DNA from: Armatimonadota bacterium
GTDB taxonomy: Bacteria; Armatimonadota; UBA5829
Reading direction: 5' to 3'
DNA: 64,000 nt
NCBI GenBank assembly: GCA_012522575.1
Contig: JAAYKE010000049.1
Location: forward strand, 2,445 to 66,444
The position numbers and the translations under genes are program-made. Below the pieces are notes generated by a model, which saw only the letters and a list, made by a program, of their open reading frames with translations, ran no database searches and was not told where the DNA came from. Below, piece after piece: positions 35,925 through 49,344 of this stretch; position 1 is the first letter of the stretch, and each line of letters opens with the position of its first letter.

Positions 35925-38678
35925 ATGGACTATAGCAAAACCGTAAACCTGCCCAGGACGGACTTCCCGATGAAGGCAAACCTGCCGAACAGGGAGCCGG
36001 AATTCCATAAATACTGGGAAGAGCACGAGATTTATAACAAGATATCCCAACGCGACGACGCCAAAGGGACGTTTGTATTCCACGATGGCCCGCCCTATTC
36101 TAACGGCGATATTCACATGGGACATGCGCTCAATAAGTCCCTTAAGGATTTCATTGCGCGTTATAAGGCGATGACCGGCTATCGAGTGCCGTATATCCCC
36201 GGCTGGGATAATCACGGGCTGCCCATCGAACAGAAAGTGGCCGAGGAGTTCCGCAAGAAGAAGCAGAATCCGAGCAAGCTGGAACTGCGTAAAGCGTGCC
36301 GCATCTATGCCGAAAAATGGGTCGGAATCCAGCGTGAGCAGCTCAAAAGGCTGGGGCTTCTCAGCGATTGGGATCACCCATATCTCACCATGAGCCGCGA
36401 ATATGAGGCCACAATCATCAAAGTGTTTGGCGAGATGATGGAGAAGGGCTATATCTACCGCGGGCTTCGGCCAATTTACTGGTGCACCAACGACGAAACC
36501 GCGCTTGCCGAAGCGGAGATCGAATATGCCGACCATACCTCGCATTCGATATTCGTTCGCTTCCCGCTAGTGTGTGACCCAAATGGCATATTCGAGCGCA
36601 AAGAAAACGCTTATACGATAATCTGGACGACGACTCCTTGGACCATCCCGGCCAACCTGGCGGTTGCGGTTCACCCGGACTATGAATATGCCGTTGTGGA
36701 TGTCGCAGGGGATCGTTATCTTATAGCAGCCGAGCTTGTCAGTCGGACGATGGAAGCCGCCGAGGTGGCCGAATATTGCGTCGTCAAGACCGTCAAGGGC
36801 AGCGAACTTGAAGGGCTGGTGTTTAAGCACCCTATTTATGATCGTGAATCCGTGCTGACCCACGCCAACTATGTCACGCTGGAAGATGGAACCGGCATTG
36901 TTCATACCGCGCCGGGACATGGCCGCGAAGACTTTGAGACCGGCAAAAAGTATGGATTGGAAGCGCTGAACCCGGTTGATGAGCGGGGCTACTTCACCGA
37001 GGCCGCCGGACAGTTCGAAGGGCTTCACATTACCAGGCAGGGCAATCAGGCGGTTATCGACGCGATGCGAGAAAACGGCTCTCTGATGGCCGAAAGCAGC
37101 ATAACCCACAGCTACCCGCACTGCTGGAGGTGTCATAAGCCGGTAATATTCCGAGCGACTGAGCAGTGGTTCGTGAGCATCGACCACGACGATTTGCGAA
37201 AGCGCATTCTTAATGAGATCGAATCATCGGTGAGGTGTTTCCCGAAGGAGGGTCGCAATCGACTGTATGCGATGATCGAAAGTTCTCCGGACTGGTGCTT
37301 GTCCAGACAGCGGTCGTGGGGAGTGGCGATCCCGGTGTTGTTCTGTGACGCCTGCCGCGAACCGGTGTTGAGCAAGGATGTCATTGATCTTGTCTATGCG
37401 GATGCGCTGGAAAACGGGTCGGACTCGTGGTTCGAGAAAGATGCCTCGGAGTTTGTGCCGGCAGGGTTCAAATGCGCAGTCTGCGGATGCGAAACATTCG
37501 TCAAAGAAGAGGATGTCCTGGATGTGTGGTTCGATTCCGGGTCGAGCTGCAGAGCCGTGACTGAGCGCCTATATGGTGACTTTGTAGCGGATGTATATCT
37601 GGAAGGCTCAGACCAGCACAGGGGCTGGTTCAACAAGTCGATCATAGTCGGGACCGCAACGAAGGGCGCGTCTCCGTTCAAGGATCTGGTCACACACGGC
37701 TATGTGCTGGACGCCGAAGGCAAGAAGATGAGCAAGTCCGGCGGCAATACGATTGCTCCAAAGGAAGTAACCAAGCATTTCGGCGCGGATATTCTCAGAT
37801 TGTATATCTCATCGCTGAACTATTTTGAGGATGTGCGGTTTGGACAGGAGATGTTCACCCGTGCGGTGGACGCATACAGGCGCATCCGCAACACGTTCAG
37901 GTTCATTCTGGGCAATTTGTCTGACTTTGACCCGGATAACGACGCCGTTGATTATGCGGATATGCCTGAGATCGATAAATTCGCTCTGCATCGGCTTGCC
38001 GAGTTCACCGCCGAAGTGACAAAGGCTTATGAAGTCTATGAGTTTCATAAGGTCTACCATGCGGTGCACAATTACTGCGCGGTGGATTTGAGCGGGTTCT
38101 ATCTGGATGTGCTCAAGGACAGGCTCTATGCATCCGCGGCGGACTCCGATGAGCGTCGCTGTGCTCAGAGCGCTTTGTATCATATATTATCCGTTCTGAC
38201 GCGGGTTGTGGCTCCCGTGCTGGTGCATACATCCGAAGAGGCCTGGCTGGCTATGCCGGGTGAATCCAAAGCGGAGTCGGTGCATCTGGCTCCGTTCGCT
38301 GAGGCGGACTCACGGTGGATCGATTCCGAGCTTGCCGGGCGATGGGGACGCATACTCGAAGTGCGCGACCGTGTGCTGGCGGCTTTGGAAGAAGCAAGGC
38401 AGTCCGGGGCCATAGGCAAGCCGCTGGAGTCCAGGATTATAGTCTCCGCAGAGGATGAACTGCTCGCGTTTTTGAAGGGATATGAGGGCATTCTTCCATC
38501 GGTCTTTATAGTATCACAGGTAGAGCTAAGGCAAGCCGATGAGTTGGCTGTCGAAGTGCAGGCTCCTGCGGGCGCAAAGTGCGCGAGGTGCTGGCTGGTG
38601 CTCGAATCAGTCGGCACAAACGAGGAACACCCGGAACTGTGCAGCCGGTGCGCAGAAGCAATAGCACACTCTCACTGA
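35925..38678 (+). CDS. ileS: Isoleucine--tRNA ligase (bacterial type 1 with a C-terminal zinc finger)
   Basis: 'PPYSNGDIHMGHALNK' (HIGH), 'KMSKSGGN' (KMSKS), C-terminal 'CARCW....CSRC'. Confidence 0.95.
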   Translation: MDYSKTVNLPRTDFPMKANLPNREPEFHKYWEEHEIYNKISQRDDAKGTFVFHDGPPYSNGDIHMGHALNKSLKDFIARYKAMTGYRVPYIPGWDNHGLPIEQKVAEEFRKKKQNPSKLELRKACRIYAEKWVGIQREQLKRLGLLSDWDHPYLTMSREYEATIIKVFGEMMEKGYIYRGLRPIYWCTNDETALAEAEIEYADHTSHSIFVRFPLVCDPNGIFERKENAYTIIWTTTPWTIPANLAVAVHPDYEYAVVDVAGDRYLIAAELVSRTMEAAEVAEYCVVKTVKGSELEGLVFKHPIYDRESVLTHANYVTLEDGTGIVHTAPGHGREDFETGKKYGLEALNPVDERGYFTEAAGQFEGLHITRQGNQAVIDAMRENGSLMAESSITHSYPHCWRCHKPVIFRATEQWFVSIDHDDLRKRILNEIESSVRCFPKEGRNRLYAMIESSPDWCLSRQRSWGVAIPVLFCDACREPVLSKDVIDLVYADALENGSDSWFEKDASEFVPAGFKCAVCGCETFVKEEDVLDVWFDSGSSCRAVTERLYGDFVADVYLEGSDQHRGWFNKSIIVGTATKGASPFKDLVTHGYVLDAEGKKMSKSGGNTIAPKEVTKHFGADILRLYISSLNYFEDVRFGQEMFTRAVDAYRRIRNTFRFILGNLSDFDPDNDAVDYADMPEIDKFALHRLAEFTAEVTKAYEVYEFHKVYHAVHNYCAVDLSGFYLDVLKDRLYASAADSDERRCAQSALYHILSVLTRVVAPVLVHTSEEAWLAMPGESKAESVHLAPFAEADSRWIDSELAGRWGRILEVRDRVLAALEEARQSGAIGKPLESRIIVSAEDELLAFLKGYEGILPSVFIVSQVELRQADELAVEVQAPAGAKCARCWLVLESVGTNEEHPELCSRCAEAIAHSH

Positions 38679-38761
38679 GTGCAATCCGGACATATTCACG
38701 CGCTAAATATAACCGCAAGCCGGGATAAATTGGTCAATGAAATGATTGGAGCCTGAACAGC

Positions 38762-39277
38762 TTGGATCGAAAAAATACGATATTGTTCTATTCGACGGCA
38801 GCGGATGTGGCGGTTATAGATCAGTTGACCAAGTATCTGGCGCGGCAGAACCTCGCGTCCGGCAAGCCTGTGGAGGTGATCGCGGGTCTGCTTGACCTCC
38901 CCCTCAACTTCAACACGGGGGCTGCGTTCGGTCTGCTGCCGGATTGGGCGCCGCTGCTCATAATCATGGCCCTTGTGGCGATATTCATAATCGTAAAACT
39001 GCGCGGCGTTGGCGGCGGTTCTTTGCCTGTTTCGATTGGCCTTGGCCTGCTGCTGGGCGGTGCGATTGGCAACCTCATCGACCGCATCGCATTCCCCGCT
39101 CGCGGCGTGACCGATTTTATCGATATCCACATATTTGTTAAAGGTCAGACGCACGCCTGGCCTACTTTCAATATCGCGGATGTCGGGATAGTGGTCGGCG
39201 CGATTCTGGTTTTGTTTCACGTATATATCCTCGAAAGGATGAGAATGGATGATGGAGACACAGAGGCCGCAGATTGA
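38762..39277 (+). CDS. lspA: Lipoprotein signal peptidase (signal peptidase II)
   Basis: 'NFNTGAAFGLL', 'GNLIDR', 'FNIADVGIVVG' conserved blocks; conserved position downstream of ileS. Confidence 0.85.
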   Translation: MDRKNTILFYSTAADVAVIDQLTKYLARQNLASGKPVEVIAGLLDLPLNFNTGAAFGLLPDWAPLLIIMALVAIFIIVKLRGVGGGSLPVSIGLGLLLGGAIGNLIDRIAFPARGVTDFIDIHIFVKGQTHAWPTFNIADVGIVVGAILVLFHVYILERMRMDDGDTEAAD

Positions 39278-39752
39278 GATAGAGCCGACACCGATTGATC
39301 GAGTGGTGGATACGCTGGCGATGATAGGGCTGTTGTATATGGTGGCGATAACCGTGATCTATTATCCGCAGCTTCCGGCGACCATTCCCACGCATTTCGA
39401 TCTTGCAGGCAAAGTCGACGGCTGGGGATCAAAGTTGACCCTGTCGTTTTTGCCTGTGATAAGCGCGGTCTTTTATTTCGCTTTATCTACGATCACCCGT
39501 TTTCCGCACATATATAACTATCCCGTGCCGATAACCGCGGAGAACGTCGAGAAGCAGTATCGAATCGGAATATCGATTATGCGATGGCTGAAGATGGAGT
39601 TCGTGTGCATTTTCGCATTTCTGACTCAGCAGATAATCGCTGCGGCTCAGGTGAAACATCTTTCGATGCAGCCGTGGGTTCCGATGTTGTTTGTGGCGGC
39701 GATACTGATTACATCGGCTGTGCATATAGTGTTGGCTTATCGCGCGAAGTAG
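39249..39752 (+). CDS. DUF1648 domain membrane protein
   Basis: 'IPTHFDLAGKVDGWGSK' is the DUF1648 signature; four predicted TM helices. Confidence 0.5.
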   Translation: MMETQRPQIEIEPTPIDRVVDTLAMIGLLYMVAITVIYYPQLPATIPTHFDLAGKVDGWGSKLTLSFLPVISAVFYFALSTITRFPHIYNYPVPITAENVEKQYRIGISIMRWLKMEFVCIFAFLTQQIIAAAQVKHLSMQPWVPMLFVAAILITSAVHIVLAYRAK

Positions 39753-39761
39753 TATTGTTTC

Positions 39762-40523
39762 ATGCATAGTACCCTGTTTAAGATATTTGGATTTCCGGTG
39801 CACTCCTATGGCCTGATGATGGTCGTTGGGTTTGCGCTTGGGCTGTGGCGCGCGAGCAGAATATCGAAGAAGCGATATGGAATTGAGCCGGATCGGGTCT
39901 ATGATATGGCCCTGACGCTGCTGATCAGCGGCATAGTGGGATCGCGAATCGTATTTGTGCTCATTAACCCGGACACGGAGAGCTGGAAGGATATGCTGTC
40001 GGTGTGGCAGGGCGGACTAAGTTTCCACGGCGGGCTGATCAGCGCGATGGTTGCAGGAGCTATTTATGCGCGTATTGCGAAGCTGAATTATTGGGTTTGC
40101 GCTGATCTGTTCTCCCCTTCGCTGACGATTGGCTATGCCTGCACTCGAATCGGATGTTTTTTGAACGGCTGCTGCTATGGCGCGCCCACCAATCTGCCCT
40201 GGGGAATGAGATTCCTCGATGAAGGCTTCCTGACTCCGCCCTCTCACCCCACCCAACTCTATGCTGTCGGCGCAAATATTCTGATCCTGTGGGCGTTGAT
40301 TAGGTTGGAGAAGCTGCGCCGAAAGCCCGGTTTCGTATTTGTCGGATATGTCGGGCTTTACTCCATATACAGATTTCTGATCGAGTTTTTGCGCAGCGGA
40401 TATACCGCCAAACTGCTCGCGTTCGGGCTGACTGAGGCGCAGTGGGTAAGCCTGGCGGCCATATTAGCCTCGGCTGTTTTGATGCTCACGGTGTATCGCA
40501 ATCCCCTCAAATCTTCACAATAG
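39762..40523 (+). CDS. lgt: Prolipoprotein diacylglyceryl transferase
   Basis: 'GFPVHSYGLMMVVGFALG', 'GGLSFHGGLI', 'R.GCFLNGCCYG' Lgt signature blocks. Confidence 0.85.
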   Translation: MHSTLFKIFGFPVHSYGLMMVVGFALGLWRASRISKKRYGIEPDRVYDMALTLLISGIVGSRIVFVLINPDTESWKDMLSVWQGGLSFHGGLISAMVAGAIYARIAKLNYWVCADLFSPSLTIGYACTRIGCFLNGCCYGAPTNLPWGMRFLDEGFLTPPSHPTQLYAVGANILILWALIRLEKLRRKPGFVFVGYVGLYSIYRFLIEFLRSGYTAKLLAFGLTEAQWVSLAAILASAVLMLTVYRNPLKSSQ

Positions 40524-40723: not shown

Positions 40724-41227
40724 ATGAATGTCAGACAACGCAGACTCAACTCGGATTTCCAGGCGCTCATCGAGCTTTCCCGCGACAATCCGCTTATTGA
40801 TTTTGATATATTAAGCAACAACAAGGACAGATATGTAGTGATTTATCGATGCAGAGGTCTGCATTGGCTGCCGGGTCGTCCGCGTCCATCCGTTGCTAAT
40901 CTGCATCGTATGGAAATTTATCTTCACCTGGACTACCCGCGCCTGCCTCCGCAACTGCAGTGGCTGACCGATATTTTCCATCCCAACATCCTGCCTCCTT
41001 CGATGAACGGCGGGGTATGCATAGGCAAATGGACCCCGGCGGAATCTCTGGACAGGCTGGTGGTGCGTCTCGGGGAGATGGTGCAGTATAAAAACTATAA
41101 CACAAAGGATCCCATGAACCTGCAAGCGGCCGCTTGGGCGGAAGAGAACTCCTCGTCGCTGCCCGTAGACAACAGGCCGCTGACAAATCATTCTAACCCT
41201 TTGGACATAGGCATAGGAGCGCAATAA
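40724..41227 (+). CDS. Ubiquitin-conjugating enzyme (E2/UBC)-like protein, copy 1
   Basis: 'DIFHPNILPPSMNGGVCIGKWTPAESL' matches the UBC active site (HPN, then the catalytic Cys, then the downstream Trp/Pro); the N-terminal 'RRLNSDFQAL' matches UBC helix 1. Confidence 0.7.
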   Translation: MNVRQRRLNSDFQALIELSRDNPLIDFDILSNNKDRYVVIYRCRGLHWLPGRPRPSVANLHRMEIYLHLDYPRLPPQLQWLTDIFHPNILPPSMNGGVCIGKWTPAESLDRLVVRLGEMVQYKNYNTKDPMNLQAAAWAEENSSSLPVDNRPLTNHSNPLDIGIGAQ

Positions 41228-41228
41228 A

Positions 41229-42167
41229 ATGTCATTTCGGTGTGGAAGGTATTTGCTGTTAGTTATTTGTTTGGGTGTTTTGTTTATCAGTTGCGTGTTC
41301 GCCGACGCCAGAGATGTGGTGGATAAAGTGGGCGATGCAGTGGTAAGCATAGAATGTGATACTCCCGCCGGCGTTTCGGGAGGTTCGGGCGTATTAGTAA
41401 ACCCGGACGGCTACATTCTGACCAACGCTCACGTCATTGATAAAGCAAAAAAAGTGCGGATTAAAATGACGGATGAGAAGCAGTTGAGCGCGAAGGTGGT
41501 GGCTAAAGACAACGAAAATGACCTTGCGATCATCCGCATCAATATCCGAAACCTGCCGGTGGCGGTTATCGGCAACGCGAAGAACGCCAAATCCGGGGAC
41601 AGCGTGGTTGCGATAGGCAGTCCCAAAGGGCTGGATCATACCGTCACCAGCGGGATTGTATCCAAAAGCGACAGAGTAATAAACGGACGCCATTATATTC
41701 AAACCGACGCAGCCCTCAACGAAGGCAACAGCGGTGGCCCGTTGCTGAACGAAAATGGGGAAATTATTGGCATCAATACAATGATTCATAAGAATGCCAA
41801 TCAACTTGGGTTTGCGATTCCCATAAATACGGCTTATGAACTGCTGAACAAAAATAATGTGGCTGTGCTCACGCCGCTGGATAATGAAGAACTTGCAAAG
41901 ACCAAATTGCCAGCCAACAAGACAGAGGGAGCAGGCAGACCATCGACCAAAAAGCCGGGCTGGATTTTATATGTGATTTTGGGAGTGGTTGCGGCGGCTG
42001 TTGCAGCAACCGTTGTGATACTGATTAGAAAGCGCAAAGCGCGAAAGCGGCAGGGAGGTAATGAGGGAGCGCTGGATATCACCCTGCATCCAAAGCTGGC
42101 ACAGGCTCAGCCGGCTGGCCAGGATAACGCCGACGACGGCGATGATTTGGAAATAGAACTGAAATAG
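41229..42167 (+). CDS. Membrane-anchored trypsin-like (S1/HtrA-type, no PDZ) serine protease with an acidic C-terminal tail
   Basis: 'ILTNAHVI' (His), 'NDLAIIRI' (Asp), 'GNSGGPLLN' (Ser) triad blocks; TM helix 'WILYVILGVVAAAVAATVVILI'; ends '...DDGDDLEIELK'; the start lies 1 nt after the E2 stop. Confidence 0.7.
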   Translation: MSFRCGRYLLLVICLGVLFISCVFADARDVVDKVGDAVVSIECDTPAGVSGGSGVLVNPDGYILTNAHVIDKAKKVRIKMTDEKQLSAKVVAKDNENDLAIIRINIRNLPVAVIGNAKNAKSGDSVVAIGSPKGLDHTVTSGIVSKSDRVINGRHYIQTDAALNEGNSGGPLLNENGEIIGINTMIHKNANQLGFAIPINTAYELLNKNNVAVLTPLDNEELAKTKLPANKTEGAGRPSTKKPGWILYVILGVVAAAVAATVVILIRKRKARKRQGGNEGALDITLHPKLAQAQPAGQDNADDGDDLEIELK

Positions 42168-42192
42168 AAACAGAGAGGAGATACACAAGATT

Positions 42193-42462
42193 ATGGGAAA
42201 AGTGGATGTCACGATTATTGACGCTACGGGAAACAAGGAGCAGCAGGCCTCGCTGCCGGACGATGCGCCGGTGAGGAGAATTATCGCCAGGCTGACGGAG
42301 ATGATGCAACTGCCGGCAACCGATCCGGGCGGACAGATGTTGAGCTACAAGTTTCAGCATAAGGCGTCCGGCACGCAGCTTACCGATGATCAGACCCTTG
42401 CCGATGCAAACGTAAAAGATGGGGACGTGCTGCGGATGCTGCCGGAGATTACTGCAGGATGA
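42193..42462 (+). CDS. Ubiquitin-like beta-grasp protein (Ubl) with a C-terminal Ala-Gly
   Basis: 89 aa; ends '...LRMLPEITAG*'; the stop overlaps the E1 start (ATGA); RBS 'GAGAGGAG' upstream. Confidence 0.6.
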   Translation: MGKVDVTIIDATGNKEQQASLPDDAPVRRIIARLTEMMQLPATDPGGQMLSYKFQHKASGTQLTDDQTLADANVKDGDVLRMLPEITAG

Positions 42463-43730
42463 TCGACGATACAGATGATCTCGGCATTGAACTGATCGGC
42501 GACGACGCCGTTGCGCCGGATGCCCAACAGCCGAAACAGGCGGACGAACAAAAGTTGGTGTCAACCGAGGAGGAAGAGGATCGCTACAGCCGTTTCCGAC
42601 TGATTCCGTGGTGGGATCAGGAGTTGCTTAAACGGACGCGCGTGCTGGTAGTTGGAGCGGGTGCGCTCGGCAATGAGATTCTCAAAAATCTTGCCCTGCT
42701 GGGAGTCGGCAAGATATTTCTGATCGATTTGGATCGGATAGAGAACTCCAACTTGTCCAGGTCGGTGCTTTACAGGCTGTCGGATGAGGGATCCGGCAAA
42801 GCGGAAGTAGCTGCGCGGTCGGCGATGGAGATCAACCCTGACATTACCGTGCATCCGTTTATGGGCAATATCGTGCACGATGTGGGCCTGGGTGTGTTCA
42901 GATCAATGGATGTGGTGATCTGCGGACTGGATAATCGAGAGGCGAGGCTGTGGGTCAACCAGTGCTGCTGGCGGGTGAACAGGCCGTGGATCGACGGAGC
43001 TATAGAGGTATTGCACGGCATAGTGCGAGTGTTCGTCCCGCCTGATGGCGCGTGTTATGAATGCACAATGAACGACACCGACTATGAGATGCTGCGGCGG
43101 CGAAAGTCCTGCGCTCTGCTGACCAGAGAACAGATGCTGGAAGGCAAAGTGCCGACCACGCCAACCATATCATCGGTAATCGCGGGAATACAGTGTCAGG
43201 AGGCCGTAAAACTGGTTCACGATCGCCCTGAGCTACCGGTGCTTGAGGGAAAGGGATACTTCTTCAACGGATTGACCCATGACTCATTTGTGGTGAATTA
43301 TACCCGCAAGCAGGATTGTTTGAGCCATGAGACCTTTGAAAACATCAAGGAGATGGACTGGCGGGCGCAGGACCTGACCTTGAGGCAGGCTCTCGAACAT
43401 ATTCGAGCGGATCTCGGAGACGAAGCGGCTCTGGAGCTTAACCGCGAAATTGTATATGAGATGACCTGTGAGCAATGCGATGTCTCGGTTCCGACTTCGA
43501 TGCTGCTGGGGAAGATGACCGAAGCCGATGCCGCTTGCCCGAAATGCCGCGAAGTGATGGCTTTGGAGATGTGTCACAGCGTCTCCGGAGACGAGGCGTT
43601 TGTTGACAAGACCTTCGCCGAAATAGGGCTGCCCGCATTTGACATAGTTGCGGGCAGGTGCGGGATGGAAGAAAGGTACTATGAGTTGAGCGGTGACAGG
43701 GCAAAGATGCTCGGCGACATCGCGGATTGA
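42459..43730 (+). CDS. E1-like ubiquitin-activating enzyme (ThiF/MoeB/HesA family) with a C-terminal CxxC zinc module
   Basis: 'RVLVVGAGALGNEILKNLALLGVGKIFLIDLDRIENSNLSRS' adenylation Rossmann fold; C-terminal 'CYEC', 'CEQC', 'CPKC' pairs; N-terminal acidic 'DDTDDLGIELIGDD'. Confidence 0.8.
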   Translation: MIDDTDDLGIELIGDDAVAPDAQQPKQADEQKLVSTEEEEDRYSRFRLIPWWDQELLKRTRVLVVGAGALGNEILKNLALLGVGKIFLIDLDRIENSNLSRSVLYRLSDEGSGKAEVAARSAMEINPDITVHPFMGNIVHDVGLGVFRSMDVVICGLDNREARLWVNQCCWRVNRPWIDGAIEVLHGIVRVFVPPDGACYECTMNDTDYEMLRRRKSCALLTREQMLEGKVPTTPTISSVIAGIQCQEAVKLVHDRPELPVLEGKGYFFNGLTHDSFVVNYTRKQDCLSHETFENIKEMDWRAQDLTLRQALEHIRADLGDEAALELNREIVYEMTCEQCDVSVPTSMLLGKMTEADAACPKCREVMALEMCHSVSGDEAFVDKTFAEIGLPAFDIVAGRCGMEERYYELSGDRAKMLGDIAD

Positions 43731-44707
43731 GCAAAAAAAGAACGGGTGGGAAGGCTATGACTGCAGAGGATAGACACAATGATGCAGATATTGAGCTTAT
43801 TGTAACCGAAAATCGGCCCAGCGGCGCGATGGATTGTCCGGACATCCGGATCGACCCTGAAGTAGATAAGCAGATACAGACCTTCGCAAAAACAGACACC
43901 GGCAAAGAGTTGGGAGGAGTGCTGCTTGGGGAGCTTATCGCTGATTCCGTAATCCCGCAGGTGAGAATCAAGGCCGCTATTGAGGCCAAACATACGGAAG
44001 CCGTTCAGACAAGCGTCAAATTCACCCACGATACCTGGGACGACATCAACCGGGTCAAGGATGAAAAATATCCGGATATGCGGATAGTCGGGTGGTTCCA
44101 CACTCATCCCGGCTTTGGCATATTCCTGTCGCGGTGGGATATGTTTATCCAGGAAAACTTCTTTAATCTGCCGTGGCAGGTGGCCTATGTGGTCGATCCT
44201 GTCGGTAAAACGAGCGGGTTTTTCCGGTGGGAAAACGGCAAAGTTGCTCAGGTCGGCAAGAAAAAAGAAATTGCGCCTCCTATTGAGGTCACGCTTCCGA
44301 AAGTGGAAAAAGTCGGCAGGTCATTTAACTGGGGAACGGTATTCTCTGTTGTCTTGAACGTTGCGCTGATTGCGGCCGTGGTATATCTTGGCCTGTTCAA
44401 GCCTCCGGAGGTTCGGGTTGAGGAGAAAATCGTAACCGAAGAAGCGCCGGTTAACGTTGAGCGGCAATCGACAACTGAGATGACCGAGCAAGCGCAGACG
44501 TGGACGGAATATGTTGTGCAGAGGGGGGATTCTTTCTGGTCGATAGCCAAGAATTGTTATGGAGAGGGTGAATTATATACCGCTATCCAACTCTTCAACA
44601 ATATGCCCGATAAAAAGGTACTGCACACAGGGGAGCGCTTGCGGCTGCCGTCCAAAGAGATCGCCGTTACGATGCTTGACAAGAGGATCAGACCAGGGAT
44701 TGATTAA
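43727..44707 (+). CDS. JAB/MPN (JAMM) metalloprotease fused to a TM segment and a C-terminal LysM domain
   Basis: 'E..AV' glutamate plus 'WFHTHPGFGIFLSRWD' (HxHx7Sx2D); TM helix 'VFSVVLNVALIAAVVYLGLF'; LysM 'YVVQRGDSFWSIAKNCYG....AIQLFNNMPDKKVLHTGERLRLP'. Confidence 0.75.
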   Translation: MSKKRTGGKAMTAEDRHNDADIELIVTENRPSGAMDCPDIRIDPEVDKQIQTFAKTDTGKELGGVLLGELIADSVIPQVRIKAAIEAKHTEAVQTSVKFTHDTWDDINRVKDEKYPDMRIVGWFHTHPGFGIFLSRWDMFIQENFFNLPWQVAYVVDPVGKTSGFFRWENGKVAQVGKKKEIAPPIEVTLPKVEKVGRSFNWGTVFSVVLNVALIAAVVYLGLFKPPEVRVEEKIVTEEAPVNVERQSTTEMTEQAQTWTEYVVQRGDSFWSIAKNCYGEGELYTAIQLFNNMPDKKVLHTGERLRLPSKEIAVTMLDKRIRPGID

Positions 44708-45301
44708 ATGCGTTCGTCTGTCGGCAAAACGTGTCCATATTGCCAGTATCCCATCAAGCCGGATGAGCCGGTAATCGAGTGCAGTCATTGCGGCATGCCG
44801 CATCATAGGGCTTGCTGGGAATATAACCGCGGGTGTACGACTTATGGCTGCAGCGGAGTGCAGCGGCATGGCAGATTGCCCGTTGCAGGCAATCAGCAGG
44901 GGTCTGATCATATCGACCTTACAGACATAATGCACGAGCCGGAACAGCCGACTCCATACTATCCGCAACAACCGGGATACCAGCCCGCGGAATCGGAAGC
45001 TCCGCTTTTAGCGACATCGAACTCATTAGCGGGCAGCGGAGGAGTGATTGGAGCGATAATCGGAGGATTTATCGGTCTGAGCGGCGGGTGCGCAGGCTGC
45101 ATTCCCGGCGCAATTTTCGGTTTTATCATAGGCGCCTTGATCGGCGGGTTTATGCTCTATGGCATTATAATAACTGTGACCAGCGGGATTGGGTATATGT
45201 TCGGATCAGTCGGCGGGCAGGACGCGGCTATCGGCGGAGCGGCAATCGGGCTGATAGTCGGAGTCATAATAATCGTAATCGGTTGCTGCAAGCAGGCATG
45301 A
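44708..45301 (+). CDS. PHD/RING-like binuclear zinc-finger protein (paralog 1) with a glycine-zipper membrane C-terminus; candidate E3
   Basis: N-terminal 'CPYCQYPIKPDEPVIECSHCGMPHHRACWEYNRGCTTYGC' (C-x2-C-x12-C-x2-C-x3-HH-x2-C-x6-C-x4-C); the C-terminal half is GxxxG-rich and hydrophobic. Confidence 0.55.
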   Translation: MRSSVGKTCPYCQYPIKPDEPVIECSHCGMPHHRACWEYNRGCTTYGCSGVQRHGRLPVAGNQQGSDHIDLTDIMHEPEQPTPYYPQQPGYQPAESEAPLLATSNSLAGSGGVIGAIIGGFIGLSGGCAGCIPGAIFGFIIGALIGGFMLYGIIITVTSGIGYMFGSVGGQDAAIGGAAIGLIVGVIIIVIGCCKQA

Positions 45302-45339
45302 CGATTCATACAAGATCAAGATAGCAGGAGGTTTGATCT

Positions 45340-45939
45340 ATGGCTAATACAGTGGCCGGACCCGCAATAGCCGGCAAGACATGTCCGTTTTGTCAGACTC
45401 CGATAAAACCAAATGAACCTGTGCACATTTGTGACCAGTGCAATATCCCGCATCACCAGGATTGCTGGCGGGAAAATGGCGGCTGCACGACTTTCGGGTG
45501 CAGGGGAGCCAATGCAGCACGCCCAATCATCCCGCAACGAGCTTACGACGATCACTCTCAACCAGTCCAACAGCAGCCCTATTTTCAACCAAATCAGCAA
45601 CCCGGATACGGTAATCAATATCAACAACATTATCAATATGCGCCCGATGTGCCGCCTGAAATAATGGGCAAGCTCAACTGGGGAGCATTTCTTTTGCCTT
45701 TCTTTTGGGCGATAGCCCACAATGTGTGGATCGGACTCTTAATACTGGTTCCCTACGTTGGATGGGTTATGCATTTTGTTCTGCTGTTCAAGGGCAACGA
45801 ATGGGCGTGGAGAAATCGCAGATTCCAGAGCGTTCAACATTTCAACGAAGTGCAAAATGCCTGGGTGATAGCGGGACTCATATTGTTCTTCGGGTCGATA
45901 GTGTTCGTTTTTATATTAATGTCACTGGCGTACGCTTAG
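45340..45939 (+). CDS. PHD/RING-like zinc-finger membrane protein (paralog 2); candidate E3
   Basis: 'CPFCQTPIKPNEPVHICDQCNIPHHQDCWRENGGCTTFGC' has the same ligand spacing; a Gln/Pro/Tyr-rich linker; two or three C-terminal TM helices. Confidence 0.55.
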   Translation: MANTVAGPAIAGKTCPFCQTPIKPNEPVHICDQCNIPHHQDCWRENGGCTTFGCRGANAARPIIPQRAYDDHSQPVQQQPYFQPNQQPGYGNQYQQHYQYAPDVPPEIMGKLNWGAFLLPFFWAIAHNVWIGLLILVPYVGWVMHFVLLFKGNEWAWRNRRFQSVQHFNEVQNAWVIAGLILFFGSIVFVFILMSLAYA

Positions 45940-45962
45940 TTTAGTCAAGTTAGCTGAAATCC

Positions 45963-46847
45963 ATGACCGGCAAGCTCTGTCCATATTGTCAAAATCGTAT
46001 TACGTCGGGGAGCGCGGTTACTGCCTGCCCTGCCTGCAACACTCCGCATCATAGCGAGTGCTGGAACTACAATGGCGGGTGCACGACTTTTGGGTGCCGA
46101 TATATGCCCGGAGCAAGTGCGCATTCTTCAGCACAAGCATACGATGCATACGATGACCTGGATATAGAGCTTTATCCTCCGGGTGGCGGGTATCCGCCTT
46201 CGCGAAGCGGTCATGTGGAGCAGCAACACTACCGGCAGAGCCAGCCCAGGTCAAAGAATTCGTGGTTGTGGGCGATTATTTCGATAACTGCGTTTCTGGG
46301 CATGGTCGCCATTATGATAAGCACGACATTCAATAACCCGACGAATGCATCTTACATGAAACGCGCCATAAAATGCGTCAATCAAGAGCAGTATGAAACT
46401 GCAAAAACCTACTGTAATCTGGCTATTGAACAGGACCCCGAGTGTATGGAGGCATATTATCTGAAGGGCACATTGCTGCTGGAGCTTTGCAATTGGCGGC
46501 ACAACAACATTGAGGTGTGGATGAACCAGGCCAGACACGGTAACACTGAGCGGTTCGATGCGGCAGATGAGTGCTTTAGGCAATGTATCAGGTTCGCGCC
46601 AACTGATACGACTGAATATAACAAATATCTGAAGCTGGATAACTCTGAGATTGTGAGCCGGGCGTATGTCCACCTGGCGATGACGGCAACTCTGCGGATG
46701 CTGGCTAATTATGATGCCAATCGTATGAACGACGCGCTACTATGGGCCAGAATCGCGCGGCAATATCTTAACAAGGTGACATATTACCACCTTGGAACGG
46801 AGTATTACGAACTGGCAGATGCCCTGCAAAAGTTTGTGCCCGGTTAA
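45963..46847 (+). CDS. PHD/RING-like zinc-finger membrane protein (paralog 3) with a C-terminal TPR-like helical domain; candidate E3
   Basis: 'CPYCQNRITSGSAVTACPACNTPHHSECWNYNGGCTTFGC'; one TM helix 'WLWAIISITAFLGMVAIMI'; TPR-like 'YETAKTYCNLAIEQDPECMEAYYLKGTLLLE'. Confidence 0.55.
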   Translation: MTGKLCPYCQNRITSGSAVTACPACNTPHHSECWNYNGGCTTFGCRYMPGASAHSSAQAYDAYDDLDIELYPPGGGYPPSRSGHVEQQHYRQSQPRSKNSWLWAIISITAFLGMVAIMISTTFNNPTNASYMKRAIKCVNQEQYETAKTYCNLAIEQDPECMEAYYLKGTLLLELCNWRHNNIEVWMNQARHGNTERFDAADECFRQCIRFAPTDTTEYNKYLKLDNSEIVSRAYVHLAMTATLRMLANYDANRMNDALLWARIARQYLNKVTYYHLGTEYYELADALQKFVPG

Positions 46848-46897
46848 GATACGCAGCGGCTTAATATACTTGATCAACACAACTGGAGACGATATAT

Positions 46898-47467
46898 ATG
46901 AACCCTAGAATGATGCGTCTGAATGCCGATTACGAGAAGATCAGGACGGAATTTCTCGGCCATAGATATGTTACGGTCGAACCGATGGGTTCGCTGCCGC
47001 CTGAGAGATATAGAATCACATATCGAGTGCCGGGGCTGCGATGGGATAGCTTCGGCAACAGGCCGATTGTCGTCAACGAACATGTCGCGGAGATATATCT
47101 TCACGCTGATTACCCGCGTCAAACGCCAAAAGCTACCCTCAAAACCCCGATTTGGCACCCGAACTTTGGCACATATATCTGCATTGGAGATCACTGGGCG
47201 GCAGGAGAGACGCTGGTGGATATAATCGTGCAGATTGGGGATATGATTCAATATAAGTCCTACAATCCCAAGAGTCCGCTCAATGCAAATGCCGCGATAT
47301 GGTCGATGCAAAACCAGCATCTCTTCCCGGTAGGGACGATCGATATCCTGCAGCCGGAACCGGAGGTGGAGTTTGGCGGCGCAAGCGCAGATGTTGAGGA
47401 GGATGACCTTGGAATTGTGCTGGGGCCAAGCTCCGATAACGATGATCTGGAGATAGAATTCAAATGA
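46898..47467 (+). CDS. E2/UBC-like protein, copy 2, with an acidic C-terminal tail
   Basis: 'PIWHPNFGTYICIGDHWAAGETL' HPN...C motif; N-terminal 'MRLNADYEKI'; ends '...DNDDLEIEFK'; RBS 'GGAGACG' upstream. Confidence 0.7.
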   Translation: MNPRMMRLNADYEKIRTEFLGHRYVTVEPMGSLPPERYRITYRVPGLRWDSFGNRPIVVNEHVAEIYLHADYPRQTPKATLKTPIWHPNFGTYICIGDHWAAGETLVDIIVQIGDMIQYKSYNPKSPLNANAAIWSMQNQHLFPVGTIDILQPEPEVEFGGASADVEEDDLGIVLGPSSDNDDLEIEFK

Positions 47468-48231
47468 CACGGCCAGATGACGCCGGCAATCAAAAAATTG
47501 AAGTGACACTGGACGAGCCGGTCGATACGCCTGAGCAGGGATCAAATAGACCGCAAGGGGAATCGGAAGGCGCGATTCCACCGGGAGCCGTTGAGGTCTA
47601 TATAGACAAGGCTGTGCTTGAATCGACCTGGGAGCATGTGCTCACAAACAGGCGCACCGAGCTTGGCGGAGTGCTGATTGGGCGGCGCAGGGAAGCGGAC
47701 GGAACCTTTACGCACATCACAAACTGGCTTGACGCGAGGCACACGACCACCACCTCCGGCAGCCTGACATTCACACACGATGCCTGGGCCGATATAGCGC
47801 AACGAATGAGCGATATGGATCCGGATGACAAAATTGTCGGATGGTATCATTCTCATCCCGGCCACGGCGTTTTTATGAGCGGCCAGGATAGATTTATCCA
47901 TAATAACTTCTTTGCCAATGACTGGCAGTGTGCGCTGGTGATTGACCCAATTAAAAACGACAGGGGATTGTTTCAATTAGTCAACGGACAGATTGTGCGC
48001 ACCGGGTATTGGTGTGTGCCCGACAAGCCGGTGTATGTGACTCAACAAGATAGTAAGCCCGTTGCCGTGGAAACGCCGCCGCAACAGGATGGGTTGCACG
48101 AAGCGGCAAGCGATTTTCTGGAAGCGGGAGATCATATCGCATCGGGAATAGAGAAATTCGTAAAATATTCTGCACAGCGCATACGCAATTCTAAAGGCCC
48201 GCTTGGCCGGAACATCGACAAAAAGGCGTAA
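47464..48231 (+). CDS. JAB/MPN (JAMM) metalloprotease, copy 2 (soluble)
   Basis: 'ELGGVLIG' glutamate plus 'WYHSHPGHGVFMSGQD' (HxHx7Sx2D); the start overlaps the E2 copy-2 stop (ATGA). Confidence 0.75.
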   Translation: MTRPDDAGNQKIEVTLDEPVDTPEQGSNRPQGESEGAIPPGAVEVYIDKAVLESTWEHVLTNRRTELGGVLIGRRREADGTFTHITNWLDARHTTTTSGSLTFTHDAWADIAQRMSDMDPDDKIVGWYHSHPGHGVFMSGQDRFIHNNFFANDWQCALVIDPIKNDRGLFQLVNGQIVRTGYWCVPDKPVYVTQQDSKPVAVETPPQQDGLHEAASDFLEAGDHIASGIEKFVKYSAQRIRNSKGPLGRNIDKKA

Positions 48232-48258
48232 GACATCGCGCTATAAGGAGCGACTGAG

Positions 48259-49344
48259 ATGAGCAACGACAAAATTGAAATCAGCTTTGACGATGAGGAC
48301 GAGCAGCCGAAGCCCCGGGAAAAGAAACTGATCATTACGAGCGATGACCTGCTCAACGTGCCCGACCCGCAGCCGCTTGCCGCACAGAAGCCTGTGGGGT
48401 TTGATGCGCCTGCGGATTCATATATGCAGTATCAGAAGAAACCATCGGCCTCAGCGGTGTCCGGTCACAGTATTATGCAGGGAGCAATCGCCGGGCTTAT
48501 TGGCGGTTTTTTGGCGTGGGCTGTCACTGAGCCTTTATTTGGGGACAATGTGGCCAGCAGCAATTTTGTCAGTATCATCGTTAAAATGGGTTTTTTCGGC
48601 GGACTGATCGGAGGGCTGATTGGCGGTTGCCTGGGAGCTGCGGATGGAGTTGTTTCAGGAGTTGCTGAAAAGGCGTTCAAGGCCGGCGCAATTGGCTTGG
48701 GGATCGGAATGGGCGGCGGTTTTCTGGGCGGAGTTTTTGGGCAGATTGTCTATGGCGCTCTGCTGCAATCGGGAGAACCCGGACTTGGCACATATATGGT
48801 GGCGCGAACAATCGGCTGGTCGGTGGTGGGTGTGTTCGTTGGGTTGGGACAGGGAGTAGGACGAGGCTCCGGCAAGCGCGTGACTAACGGTTTGCTGGGA
48901 GGTCTGGCTGGCGGTTTTATTGCAGGAATTCTGTTTGACCCAATTTCGGTTTTATTTGCTACCGGATTGTTGAGCCGACTCTTTGGAATCACGATACTCG
49001 GCGCTGCTGCCGGGCTGGCGGTCGGATTGGTGGAGGAAATGCGAAAGCAAGCCTGGTTATCTATAGTCAAAGGGCCGCTTGCGGGCAAGCAGTTTATTTT
49101 ATATGAACAAAGAACGAGAATTGGCAGTTCTCCCAAGTGTGAAATTAGTCTGGTAAAAGACCCGCAGGTGATGCCGGAACACATTGCCATAGATAATCAC
49201 GGCAGCAGTTTCAGCCTCAGCGCTCTTATGGGACAGGCGCTGGTGGACGGACGACCGGTACATCAAACCCGGCTGCAGGCGGGGAATATGATCACACTCG
49301 GTTCGACGTCGCTGCTCTTTGAGGAGAAGGCGATCGGTCAGTAG
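48259..49344 (+). CDS. Membrane protein with a glycine-zipper TM region and a C-terminal FHA-like domain
   Basis: N-terminal acidic 'KIEISFDDEDEQ'; GxxxG-rich hydrophobic core 'GAIAGLIGGFLAWAV...GGLIGGLIGGCLGAADG...GIGMGGGFLGGVFG'; C-terminal 'GKQFILYEQRTRIGSSPKCEISLVKDPQVMPEHIAID.....L.....ALVDGRPV....L..GNMITLGSTSLLFE' matches an FHA fold pattern. Confidence 0.55.
   Translation: MSNDKIEISFDDEDEQPKPREKKLIITSDDLLNVPDPQPLAAQKPVGFDAPADSYMQYQKKPSASAVSGHSIMQGAIAGLIGGFLAWAVTEPLFGDNVASSNFVSIIVKMGFFGGLIGGLIGGCLGAADGVVSGVAEKAFKAGAIGLGIGMGGGFLGGVFGQIVYGALLQSGEPGLGTYMVARTIGWSVVGVFVGLGQGVGRGSGKRVTNGLLGGLAGGFIAGILFDPISVLFATGLLSRLFGITILGAAAGLAVGLVEEMRKQAWLSIVKGPLAGKQFILYEQRTRIGSSPKCEISLVKDPQVMPEHIAIDNHGSSFSLSALMGQALVDGRPVHQTRLQAGNMITLGSTSLLFEEKAIGQ

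What the first reader, a model, noticed from the sequence alone, without database searches (positions are those of the whole stretch)
43727..44707. JAMM deubiquitinase-like domain fused to a transmembrane helix and a C-terminal LysM domain
The catalytic JAB domain (Glu..., HTHPGFGIFLSRWD) is followed by a TM helix, a ~70-aa linker and a canonical LysM 'YVVQRGDSFWSIA...GERLRLP'.

LysM binds peptidoglycan/chitin-type glycans outside the cytoplasm. This gives the topology JAB(cytoplasm)-TM-LysM(periplasm), which would physically tie deconjugation to the cell wall. Such a fusion is not a feature of described bacterial Ubl systems. It hints that the cassette senses or reports envelope status.
Basis: partly seen in the sequence, partly recalled or inferred. 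Interest (0 to 1): 0.55.

Follow-up and report, generated by a model that had tools for sequence, protein, structure and literature searches.

The report
Membrane-anchored Rpn11-like deubiquitinase with LysM
This gene encodes a ubiquitin-removing type of protease anchored in the cell membrane, with a cell-wall-binding LysM domain on the far side; it is a real and widely conserved core part of an uncharacterised bacterial ubiquitin-like tagging system, but the fusion has been noticed before and is not a one-off.

Summary
ORF 43727-44707 encodes an intact JAMM/Rpn11-type domain (E61, H125-x-H127-x7-S135-xx-D138), one transmembrane helix (aa 204-224) and a canonical LysM domain (aa 262-308). Both domains score above Pfam's thresholds. 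The TM-to-LysM linker is about 37 aa, not about 70.

The fusion is not peculiar to this window. JAB-TM-LysM, always in that order, occurs in hundreds of protein clusters across Armatimonadota, Clostridia, Zipacnadia, WS1, Synergistota, Chloroflexota and other phyla. It almost always sits in a cassette with a YukD-like Ubl ending in ...PEITAG, a ThiF-type E1, an HPN-Cys E2 and membrane-anchored Prok-RING_1 E3s. A periplasmic trypsin-like protease, an FHA protein and a second JAB are often present too.

The topology JAB-in/LysM-out is inferred from several independent lines of evidence but has not been measured.

The most likely role is a membrane-tethered enzyme that processes the Ubl precursor or removes the Ubl from its targets, with LysM positioning it on peptidoglycan. 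Whether LysM senses envelope status cannot be told from sequence.

The operon type was described computationally in 2011, and "bacterial lysM-associated JAMM sequences" were mentioned in passing in 2018. I found no functional study. I rate it a new member of a known but uncharacterised kind, of moderate interest.

The parts
43727..44707 (+). Whole ORF: JAB-TM-LysM protein, 326 aa from TTG 43727 or 316 aa from ATG 43757
   Evidence: ORF list, sequence, Pfam JAB and LysM. The database twin P0001/NLN75490.1 comes from an Armatimonadota MAG.
43781..43804 (+). N-terminal acidic/aliphatic motif DADIELIV (aa 19-26). It is shared with E1, E2, protease-tail and RING proteins of the cassette and is a putative docking peptide.
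   Evidence: N-termini of homologues. Enrichment near protein termini: 39/52 proteases, 25/55 E2s and 34/136 JABs, against 6/776 background ORFs. PSSM test: 43% of JAB-TM-LysM N-termini reach p<=0.05 against shuffles.
43838..44254 (+). JAB/MPN+ catalytic domain (aa about 38-176), Rpn11-like fold
   Evidence: Pfam. AF2 pLDDT is mostly above 85. Foldseek top hits are the Caldiarchaeum Rpn11 homologue 6fnn (TM-score 0.78 normalised to the target), yeast Rpn11, CSN5 and AMSH. Profile against PDB: Rpn11 at E about 1e-13.
43907..43909 (+). Catalytic Glu61 codon (KELGG)
   Evidence: Invariant column in alignments A1 and A2 (E51 in the numbering from the ATG start).
44099..44140 (+). JAMM zinc/catalytic motif H125-T-H127-PGFGIFL-S135-RW-D138
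   Evidence: Sequence. The HxHx7SxxD motif is present in 59/59 JAB-TM-LysM homologues.
44336..44398 (+). Single transmembrane helix (aa 204-224)
   Evidence: Hydropathy 2.48. Predicted as a helix with pLDDT about 89-95. A TM segment between JAB and LysM is found in 61/64 LysM-bearing homologues in the loci.
44399..44509 (+). Extracytoplasmic acidic, low-complexity linker (aa 225-261, 37 aa)
   Evidence: Low pLDDT. The family median linker is 56 aa, range 31-105. By eye the linkers look Pro/Ala-rich in several Armatimonadota homologues and heptad-like (possibly coiled-coil) in several Clostridia; no coiled-coil predictor was run.
44510..44650 (+). LysM domain (aa 262-308)
   Evidence: Pfam 29 bits against a cut-off of 20.9, full-length match. 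AF2 gives a beta-alpha-alpha-beta fold at pLDDT about 97. Profile hits to the LysM domains of LytE, Ecp6 and CEBiP.
40724..41227 (+). E2 number 1 (UQ_con, HPN...Cys99)
   Evidence: Pfam. HPN and Cys are invariant in 79 E2s.
41229..42167 (+). Trypsin-like serine protease: signal peptide, periplasmic protease domain, TM, RKRKARKR cluster, then a cytoplasmic tail ending DDLEIELK
   Evidence: Pfam Trypsin_2 at 3e-34. TM segments. Family statistics on K+R content and on which side of the TM the motif lies.
42193..42462 (+). YukD-like Ubl, made in mature form ending ...LPEITAG*
   Evidence: Pfam YukD at 2e-14. Conserved C-terminal PEITAG across loci.
42459..43730 (+). E1 (ThiF) with invariant Cys218 and CxxC zinc sites. 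Its N-terminus carries the DDLGIEL motif.
   Evidence: Pfam at 2e-54. Conservation. Motif.
44708..45301 (+). Prok-RING_1 E3 number 1 with a glycine-zipper TM region
   Evidence: Pfam, TM segments.
45340..45939 (+). Prok-RING_1 E3 number 2 with 2 or more TM segments
   Evidence: Pfam, TM segments.
45963..46847 (+). Prok-RING_1 E3 number 3: RING, DDLDIEL motif, one TM, then a C-terminal TPR domain predicted to lie outside the cytoplasm
   Evidence: Pfam RING and TPR. TM with a positively charged N-flank. Motif.
46898..47467 (+). E2 number 2 (HPN...Cys). Its C-terminal tail carries two motif-like stretches (DDLGIVL and DDLEIEFK).
   Evidence: Pfam. The regex scan matched DLEIEF at aa 183; DDLGIVL was read from the translation.
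47464..48231 (+). Second, soluble JAB paralogue with an intact JAMM motif
   Evidence: Pfam. JAMM motif census. No TM.
48259..49344 (+). Multi-TM glycine-rich membrane protein with a C-terminal FHA (YscD-like) domain
   Evidence: Pfam Yop-YscD_cpl at 3.6e-12 and FHA. TM segments.

Best explanation
The gene encodes a bitopic membrane protein. On the cytoplasmic side it has an N-terminal docking motif and an active Rpn11-type JAMM isopeptidase. It has a single TM helix. Outside the membrane, a flexible linker leads to a LysM domain that binds peptidoglycan.

It is the core deconjugating or precursor-processing peptidase of a conserved, largely membrane-embedded bacterial ubiquitin-like conjugation cassette. 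The other parts are a YukD-like Ubl ending in -TAG, a Cys-dependent ThiF E1, an HPN-Cys E2 and TM-anchored Prok-RING_1 E3s. A periplasmic trypsin-like protease, an FHA membrane protein and a second JAB are often present.

The JAB cleaves after the Ubl's C-terminal Gly. Where the Ubl carries an extension this releases mature Ubl from its precursor, and in all cases it removes Ubl from membrane-proximal targets. The TM anchor confines this activity to the membrane, and LysM fixes or positions the enzyme on the cell wall.

Shown here: domain identities, intact catalytic motif, conserved architecture, and near-obligate linkage to the cassette.
Inferred: topology, peptidoglycan binding, Ubl as the substrate, and the positioning role of LysM.
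For: Domains and catalytic residues:
- Pfam JAB and LysM both score above their cut-offs.
- The E...HxHx7SxxD motif is invariant in 59/59 family members.

Fold:
- The AF2 model is confident for JAB, the TM helix and LysM.
- The nearest structures are the Caldiarchaeum Rpn11 homologue bound to ubiquitin, yeast and human Rpn11, and CSN5.

Conservation:
- 506 species genomes carry this JAB subfamily.
- 453 50%-identity clusters match at E<=1e-30; 91 of the top 150 have LysM; the order is JAB<TM<LysM in 84/84.

Cassette linkage, in 41 well-flanked loci:
- E1 41/41, E2 41/41, Ubl 40/41, RING 40/41.
- A minimal five-gene version (Ubl-E1-E2-JAB/LysM-RING) exists in Tindallia and Anoxynatronum.

The cascade looks competent for conjugation:
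- E1 Cys218 and the E2 HPN...Cys99 are invariant.
- The Ubl C-terminus is a conserved ...LQPEITAG. 24/64 Ubls end exactly at AG; the rest carry extensions of 1-250 aa. In several Clostridia the extension is a Zn-ribbon plus one or two predicted TM segments, so those precursors are membrane-anchored and would need cleavage at the membrane.

Topology:
- No signal peptide, and about 200 aa of folded N-terminal domain.
- Across the family, flank net charge is +1.68 on the JAB side against +0.04 on the LysM side (p=2e-4).
- The shared D-[LIV]-x-[LIV]-[DE]-[LIVF] motif occurs on the soluble cytoplasmic E1 and E2.
- On the protease tail the motif lies only after the TM and its Arg/Lys cluster (39/50 after, 0 before; K+R 4.6 against 2.3, p=6e-8).
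- The motif also lies at the N-terminus of JAB-TM-LysM proteins. This puts the JAB side in the cytoplasm.
Against: - No dedicated topology predictor or experiment was available, and the positive-inside bias around this TM is modest (K+R 3.09 against 2.42, p=0.024).
- LysM is not always extracytoplasmic. The cytoplasmic K+-binding protein Kbp also matched the LysM part of the profile.
- Some orthologues keep the TM anchor but lack LysM (45/150 representatives; 18/79 genome loci have only LysM-less TM-anchored JABs). LysM is therefore not needed for the core reaction.
- In this window the Ubl is already mature (ends in AG), so processing is unnecessary here and deconjugation is only assumed.
- Two active JAB paralogues are present, and nothing shows which one does what.
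- Peptidoglycan binding, the Ubl as substrate and the conjugation targets are all untested.
Confidence: 0.6

Rival explanations
1. LysM is a sensor, not just an anchor. Binding of peptidoglycan, or of released muropeptides when the wall is damaged or remodelled, changes the oligomeric state or orientation of the protein across the membrane. That switches JAB activity and so sets the level of Ubl conjugates. This would be a wall-integrity to ubiquitin-like signalling pathway, analogous to PASTA kinases and plant LysM receptor kinases. It is the first reader's reading.
For: - Several other cassette proteins are also predicted to put domains outside the cytoplasm: the trypsin-like protease and the TPR tail of RING number 3.
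- FHA domains in the cassette suggest a link to Ser/Thr phosphosignalling.
- By eye, the outside linkers in several Clostridia look heptad-like, which would fit dimerisation; this was not tested with a coiled-coil predictor.
- In this lineage the cassette lies directly downstream of lspA-lgt, and that arrangement is kept in a 74%-identical relative.
Against: - A single LysM joined to the TM by a disordered linker of 31-105 aa is a poor conduit for allosteric signals.
- LysM is replaced by unrelated tails that look helical, TPR-like or acidic, or is simply lost, in many orthologues and paralogues.
- Nothing in the sequence separates sensing from tethering.
Confidence: 0.2
2. The whole cassette is an anti-phage or other conflict system, like the Bil, Bub and CBASS Cap2/Cap3 systems. 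In this reading the wall-bound JAB-LysM keeps the system off until a phage breaches or degrades the wall.
For: - The experimentally characterised bacterial E1/E2/Ubl/DUB operons with a known role (Bil, type II CBASS) act in phage defence, and uncharacterised RING-containing operons are predicted to do the same (PMC10557695).
- The distribution is sporadic and spans many phyla: 506 of 185,579 species genomes.
- One Clostridia locus is flanked by ImmA/HTH and resolvase genes.
Against: - PADLOC gives only weak, generic JAB and E1 domain hits and no system-level match.
- No relative was found in 2.9 million viral contigs.
- The flanks examined are mostly housekeeping or metabolic genes: ileS-lspA-lgt, acetate kinase/PFOR, metal ATPases, glycosidases.
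- The locus is syntenic within the Armatimonadota lineage.
Confidence: 0.12
3. The hydrophobic segment is not a true TM, or is re-entrant, so JAB and LysM are in the same compartment. Either both are cytoplasmic, as with the LysM of Kbp, or both are outside, with the JAB acting as a peptidoglycan stem-peptide hydrolase targeted by LysM.
For: - LysM is most often fused to wall hydrolases (LytE and others appear among the PDB hits), and a cytoplasmic LysM exists in Kbp.
- JAB domains cleave isopeptide-type bonds.
Against: - The segment is 21-22 aa long, strongly hydrophobic (2.48), conserved in position in 61/64 homologues, and modelled as a helix with high confidence.
- There is no signal peptide to export a 200-aa N-terminal domain.
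- The gene is linked to cytoplasmic, ATP-dependent E1/E2/Ubl genes in 39-41 of 41 loci.
- The N-terminal motif is shared with cytoplasmic E1 and E2.
Confidence: 0.04

Closest known systems
Prok-RING_1 / YukD-type bacterial E1-E2-RING-JAB operons (Burroughs, Iyer & Aravind, Mol Biosyst 2011; Pfam PF14446)
   Same: Same gene set: YukD-like Ubl, ThiF E1, UQ_con E2, Prok-RING_1 proteins with TM segments, and JAB. The window's cassette is an instance of this operon type.
   Different: The system is known only from comparative genomics. I could not read the paper, so I cannot say how far it discusses the LysM fusion. No experimental work was found.
Caldiarchaeum subterraneum Rpn11 homologue (CsRpn11, PDB 6fnn/6fjv) and eukaryotic Rpn11/CSN5
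   Same: These are the best structural and profile matches of the JAB domain (TM-score 0.78 normalised to the target; E about 1e-10 to 1e-13). The JAMM motif is the same, and both sit in operons with Ub-like, E1, E2 and RING genes.
   Different: CsRpn11, Rpn11 and CSN5 are soluble and work alone or in lid complexes. This protein adds a TM helix and an extracytoplasmic LysM. Fuchs et al. left 'bacterial lysM-associated JAMM sequences' out of their map.
Bil (BilABCD), Bub and type II CBASS Cap2/Cap3 bacterial Ubl systems
   Same: All are Ubl plus E1 plus E2 plus JAB-type peptidase operons in bacteria.
   Different: - These systems have no RING E3, TM-anchored DUB, LysM, FHA or trypsin-like partner.
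- Bub works through oxyester intermediates and uses a DUF6527 protease, whereas this cassette keeps the E1 Cys and the E2 HPN-Cys.
- Only weak, generic PADLOC hits were found.
PASTA Ser/Thr kinases (PknB/PrkC) and plant LysM receptor kinases (CERK1/NFR) - an analogy in architecture only
   Same: A wall- or glycan-binding ectodomain, a single TM, and a cytoplasmic enzyme of a post-translational modification system. This comparison rests on general knowledge.
   Different: The cytoplasmic enzyme here is a JAMM isopeptidase, not a kinase. There is no homology outside LysM, and signalling is not shown.
Membrane-anchored eukaryotic DUBs (USP19 at the ER, USP30 on mitochondria; AMSH recruited to endosomes) - a functional analogy
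   Same: In both cases deubiquitination is confined to one membrane surface. AMSH is also a JAMM enzyme and appears among the structural hits.
   Different: The anchoring modes and catalytic families differ (USP enzymes are Cys proteases). None of these has an ectodomain that binds an extracellular polymer.

Membership tests
JAMM/MPN+ (Rpn11-type) metalloisopeptidases | Catalytic motif E...HxHx7SxxD | tested here: met
   E61, H125, H127, S135 and D138 are present. The columns are invariant in A1 and A2. The HxHx7SxxD regex matches 59/59 family members.
JAMM/MPN+ (Rpn11-type) metalloisopeptidases | Profile match above the curated threshold, and the MPN fold | tested here: met
   PF01398 scores 42.7 bits against 22.5. 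Foldseek probability is 1.00 to CsRpn11, Rpn11 and CSN5, rmsd 2.5-3.0 A over about 150 columns.
JAMM/MPN+ (Rpn11-type) metalloisopeptidases | Zn-dependent cleavage after the Ubl C-terminal Gly (isopeptidase or precursor processing) | not testable with these tools
   This needs an enzyme assay with the cognate Ubl (...PEITAG).
LysM domain (PF01476) | Profile match above the curated threshold over the whole domain | tested here: met
   29.0 bits against 20.9, profile positions 1-43 of 43. The family profile hits the LysM domains of LytE, Ecp6 and CEBiP.
LysM domain (PF01476) | Beta-alpha-alpha-beta fold | tested here: met
   AF2 model: strand 249-253, helices 260-268 and 271-280, strand 294-298, pLDDT about 97.
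LysM domain (PF01476) | Binds GlcNAc-containing glycans (peptidoglycan or chitin) | not testable with these tools
   A pull-down or ITC experiment is needed.
LysM domain (PF01476) | Extracytoplasmic location | tested here: inconclusive
   Indirect evidence agrees: one TM, no signal peptide, flank charge bias (p=2e-4), and the sidedness of the shared motif. No topology predictor or experiment was available.
Prok-RING_1/YukD-type E1-E2-RING Ubl cassette | Co-located YukD-like Ubl, ThiF E1, UQ_con E2, Prok-RING_1 and JAB genes | tested here: met
   All are present in window 40724-49344 on one strand. The same set is found in 39/41 well-flanked loci.
Prok-RING_1/YukD-type E1-E2-RING Ubl cassette | Residues needed for a thioester cascade (E1 Cys, E2 HPN-Cys, Ubl C-terminal Gly) | tested here: met
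   E1 C218 is conserved in 100% of sequences, and E2 H86-P87-N88 and C99 are invariant. The Ubl ends ...PEITAG.
Bil / Bub / CBASS Cap2-Cap3 defence systems | Match to the system-specific protein models and gene set | tested here: not met
   PADLOC gives only weak JAB hits (27 bits or less) and generic E1-E2 or BilD hits on the ThiF domain. There are no hits for the Ubl, E2, RING or FHA proteins. The cassette lacks DUF6527 (BubE) and has RING E3s instead.

The most novel reading that the evidence does not exclude
The LysM ectodomain reads the state of the peptidoglycan (intact wall versus damage or released muropeptides) and gates the cytoplasmic Rpn11-like isopeptidase. A eukaryote-like E1-E2-RING ubiquitin-type cascade in bacteria would then be wired as a transmembrane envelope-integrity signalling or quality-control pathway. 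All its enzymes would be recruited through a shared SIM-like D-phi-x-phi-E-phi peptide that docks on the YukD-like Ubl.
Probability: 0.15. Interest if true: 0.8.

Novelty: new member of a known kind. Interest (0 to 1): 0.45.

Why it matters
The bacterial E1-E2-RING-Ubl cassettes look like the bacterial operons closest to the archaeal and eukaryotic ubiquitin system. Here the DUB is Rpn11-like, the E2 has the HPN-Cys motif and the E3s are RING-type. Their biology is still unknown.

The DUB, the E3s, often the E2 and sometimes the Ubl precursor are all membrane-anchored. The DUB usually carries a peptidoglycan-binding domain on the outside. Together these give a concrete, testable lead that the system works at the envelope.

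Cultured hosts exist for testing it: Tindallia magadiensis, Anoxynatronum sibiricum and Clostridium weizhouense.

As a discovery the fusion itself is not new. It is abundant in databases, is auto-annotated as a 'LysM peptidoglycan-binding domain-containing protein', and has been mentioned in the literature.

Tried and rejected
- **Key paper not readable.** Burroughs et al. 2011 (PMC5938088) is not held. What I say about its content rests on my recollection and on citations in other papers.
- **Literature searches.** Searches combining LysM, JAB or JAMM, YukD, Prok-RING and FHA found no functional study. The only hit was one passing mention of lysM-associated JAMMs.
- **PADLOC.** No system-level match, so I did not file the cassette under Bil, Bub or CBASS.
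- **Viral contigs.** No relatives, so a phage-borne origin is rejected.
- **LysM detection method.** Single-sequence phmmer with the window's LysM missed LysM domains that Pfam calls in Clostridia. I replaced it with an HMM built from alignment A1.
- **Positive-inside rule on this protein alone.** Uninformative: 3 against 3 K+R residues in the 15-aa flanks. I used family-wide statistics and the motif-sidedness argument instead.
- **JAB as a peptidoglycan hydrolase exported with LysM.** Considered and rejected: no signal peptide, the TM lies between the two domains, and the gene is linked to E1/E2/Ubl.
- **Gene-fusion artefact.** Considered and rejected, because the architecture recurs in hundreds of independent assemblies.
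- **Complex modelling.** A multimer prediction to ask what binds the shared motif was not possible. I judged that the structure tool, which is restricted to window and search-result sequences, would not take a joined construct, so I did not submit one.


Full report
**1. The observation**

ORF 43727..44707 (+) encodes 326 aa from a TTG that overlaps the stop codon of the upstream E1 gene. An ATG at 43757, preceded by a GGGAAGG stretch, gives the 316-aa form present in public databases. Pfam places a JAB/MPN domain at aa 40-145 (42.7 bits, cut-off 22.5). It places a full-length LysM at aa 262-308 (29.0 bits, cut-off 20.9).

The catalytic signature is complete: E61 and H125-x-H127-x7-S135-xx-D138. 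There is one hydrophobic segment, aa 204-224 (Kyte-Doolittle 2.48), and no N-terminal signal-like segment.

An AlphaFold2 model built on 69 homologues has a mean pLDDT of 80.8. It gives a confident MPN fold, a TM helix, a disordered linker and a beta-alpha-alpha-beta LysM at pLDDT about 97.

The TM-to-LysM linker is 37 aa, not about 70.

**2. The fusion is a conserved family, not an accident**

- A word-indexed search found 1435 relatives. Nearly all of the best 120 carry both PF01398 and PF01476.
- An exhaustive HMMER scan of 1.84 billion cluster representatives found 453 at E<=1e-30. Of the best 150, 91 have a LysM. In all 84 with a JAMM motif, a TM and a LysM, the order is JAB<TM<LysM.
- A scan of one genome per species found this JAB subfamily in 506 genomes.
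- In the 79 loci kept, 58 carry JAB-TM-LysM. They come from Clostridia and other Bacillota, Armatimonadota, Zipacnadia, WS1, Synergistota, Desulfobacterota, Sumerlaeota and Chloroflexota.
- A further 18 of the 79 loci carry only LysM-less TM-anchored JABs. These include loci from Planctomycetota, Acidobacteriota, Bacteroidota, Methylocystaceae and Abditibacteriota.
- The window matches an Armatimonadota MAG protein that NCBI names 'LysM peptidoglycan-binding domain-containing protein' and JGI names 'proteasome lid subunit RPN8/RPN11'.

**3. Genomic context**

In the window the gene lies in a same-strand cassette, 40724-49344. The gene order is:

1. E2
2. trypsin-like protease
3. YukD-like Ubl
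4. ThiF E1
5. JAB-TM-LysM
6. three Prok-RING_1 membrane proteins
7. a second E2
8. a second, soluble JAB
9. a multi-TM FHA protein

The same set recurs elsewhere. In 41 loci with enough flanking DNA the counts are:

| Partner | Loci with it |
|---|---|
| E1 | 41/41 |
| E2 | 41/41 |
| Ubl | 40/41 |
| RING | 40/41 |
| Protease | 33/41 |
| FHA | 27/41 |
| Second JAB | 24/41 |

Tindallia and Anoxynatronum carry a minimal five-gene version: Ubl-E1-E2-JAB/LysM-RING. JAB-TM-LysM is therefore a core component.

The cascade looks competent for canonical thioester chemistry. E1 Cys218 and the E2 HPN...Cys99 are invariant. The Ubl has a ubiquitin-like conserved tail...LRLQPEITAG.

About 40% of the Ubls end exactly at AG, as in this window. 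The rest carry extensions of 1-250 aa. In several Clostridia the extension is a Zn-ribbon plus one or two predicted TM segments, so the precursor is itself membrane-anchored. Such precursors need a peptidase at the membrane, which fits a TM-anchored JAB.

**4. What kind of JAB**

The profile search against PDB and Foldseek both put the domain closest to three groups:

- the Caldiarchaeum Rpn11 homologue solved with its ubiquitin (6fnn; TM-score 0.78 normalised to the target);
- yeast and human Rpn11;
- CSN5.

This is the eukaryote-like branch, not the Prok-JAB branch.

**5. Topology**

No topology predictor was available, so this is an inference from four lines of evidence.

- There is one TM and no signal peptide, and about 200 aa of folded enzyme lies N-terminal to the TM.
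- Across 57 distinct homologues the JAB-side flank is more positive. K+R is 3.09 against 2.42 (p=0.024). Net charge is +1.68 against +0.04 (p=2e-4).
- A short motif, D-[LIV]-x-[LIV]-[DE]-[LIVF], is shared by the cassette proteins. On the protease it occurs only after the C-terminal TM and its Arg/Lys cluster: 39/50 after, 0 before, with K+R 4.6 against 2.3 (p=6e-8). It also sits on the soluble E1 and E2 and at the N-terminus of JAB-TM-LysM proteins. The motif therefore marks the cytoplasmic face, and that is the JAB side.
- The partners of the JAB (ATP-dependent E1, E2, Ubl) are cytoplasmic.

The caveat is that a cytoplasmic LysM exists in Kbp, which also matched the profile. With a TM between the two domains, however, JAB and LysM must lie on opposite sides of the membrane.

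**6. Mechanism**

- *Most likely (about 0.6).* The protein is a membrane-tethered Rpn11-like peptidase. It matures the Ubl and/or strips it from membrane-proximal targets. LysM fixes it to peptidoglycan.
Other cassette proteins are also predicted to expose periplasmic domains: the protease and the TPR tail of RING number 3. FHA domains hint at phospho-signalling. Against it, the long disordered linker and the frequent loss or replacement of LysM fit a positioning module better than an allosteric sensor.
- *Defence reading (about 0.12).* This cannot be excluded, but it gains no support from PADLOC, viral contigs or most flanking genes.

**7. Comparison with what is known**

- The experimentally studied bacterial systems (Bil, Bub, CBASS Cap2/Cap3) have no RING, no TM-anchored DUB and no LysM. 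The cassette fails their model-based membership test.
- It does fit the E1-E2-RING-JAB operons with YukD-like Ubls. By my recollection these were predicted by Burroughs, Iyer and Aravind in 2011. [quoted passage not shown] I could not read the 2011 paper itself.
- Fuchs et al. 2018 explicitly mention 'bacterial lysM-associated JAMM sequences' and leave them out of their JAMM map.
- I found no functional work on them.

**8. Verdict**

I class it as a new member of a known but uncharacterised kind, with interest 0.45.

The most useful new leads from this check are:

- the quantified, near-obligate linkage of JAB-TM-LysM to the cassette;
- the membrane-anchored Ubl precursors;
- the shared SIM-like terminal motif.

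Noticed in passing
window 43781-43804 (JAB-LysM N-terminus); E1 N-terminus near 42477-42494; protease C-terminus near 42144-42164; RING number 3 near 46155-46172; E2 number 2 C-terminus near 47444-47464; also many loci (L001, L002, L012, L025 and others): A short acidic/aliphatic motif, D-[LIV]-x-[LIV]-[DE]-[LIVF] (for example DDLEIELK, DDLGIEL, DADIELIV), sits at the termini of nearly every cassette enzyme but not on the Ubl. It resembles a SUMO-interaction motif and may be a common docking peptide, possibly for the YukD-like Ubl. It is enriched roughly 15- to 20-fold over background ORFs.
   Followed up: partly
L002 3576-4181, L016 3505-4095, L017 3752-4342, L069 3163-3951, L056 3755-4771: In several Clostridia the Ubl is made as a precursor: YukD domain...PEITAG, then a Zn-ribbon (or another tail) and one or two predicted TM segments. 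The Ubl would start out membrane-anchored and need cleavage after AG.
   Followed up: partly
window 41229-42167: The trypsin-like protease has a signal peptide, a C-terminal TM followed by RKRKARKR, and a roughly 40-aa acidic cytoplasmic tail ending in the shared motif. It is a periplasmic protease wired to the cytoplasmic Ubl machinery. The arrangement is conserved in 50/52 homologues.
   Followed up: partly
window 44708-46847: Three tandem Prok-RING_1 paralogues have different membrane or extracytoplasmic parts: a glycine zipper, a two-TM module, and one TM plus a TPR domain predicted to be periplasmic. Close relatives have four or five copies.
   Followed up: no
L002 5376-7301 and many other Clostridia loci; window 48259-49344: In Firmicutes the E2 is fused to the multi-TM region and the FHA domain, which are a separate protein in the window. 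In the type VIIb secretion system, YukD is reported to bind non-covalently in a region involving the FHA domain of YukB (PMC12637312). The FHA domain here may likewise bind the YukD-like Ubl rather than a phosphopeptide.
   Followed up: no
window 35925-40523 and L085 2203-6714: The cassette lies directly downstream of ileS-lspA-(DUF1648)-lgt on the same strand, next to the lipoprotein maturation genes. The arrangement ileS-(dksA-like)-lspA-lgt-cassette is kept in a relative whose JAB-LysM is 74% identical.
   Followed up: partly
window 49527-50102 (+) and 50230-50934 (-): Just after the cassette there is a putative lipoprotein (lipobox LVVGC; weak DUF2135 match below the Pfam cut-off). On the opposite strand there is a secreted PdaC/DUF3298 protein; by my recollection this domain pair also occurs in the lysozyme-binding anti-sigma factor RsiV. 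A link to the cassette was not examined.
   Followed up: no
window 47464-48231 and JAB paralogues in L004, L008, L009, L002: All but one of the JAB paralogues in these cassettes keep an intact JAMM motif (135/136). Unlike Rpn11/Rpn8 or CSN5/CSN6, there is no obvious inactive MPN- partner. A second class of TM-anchored JABs has outside tails that look helical, TPR-like or acidic instead of LysM.
   Followed up: partly
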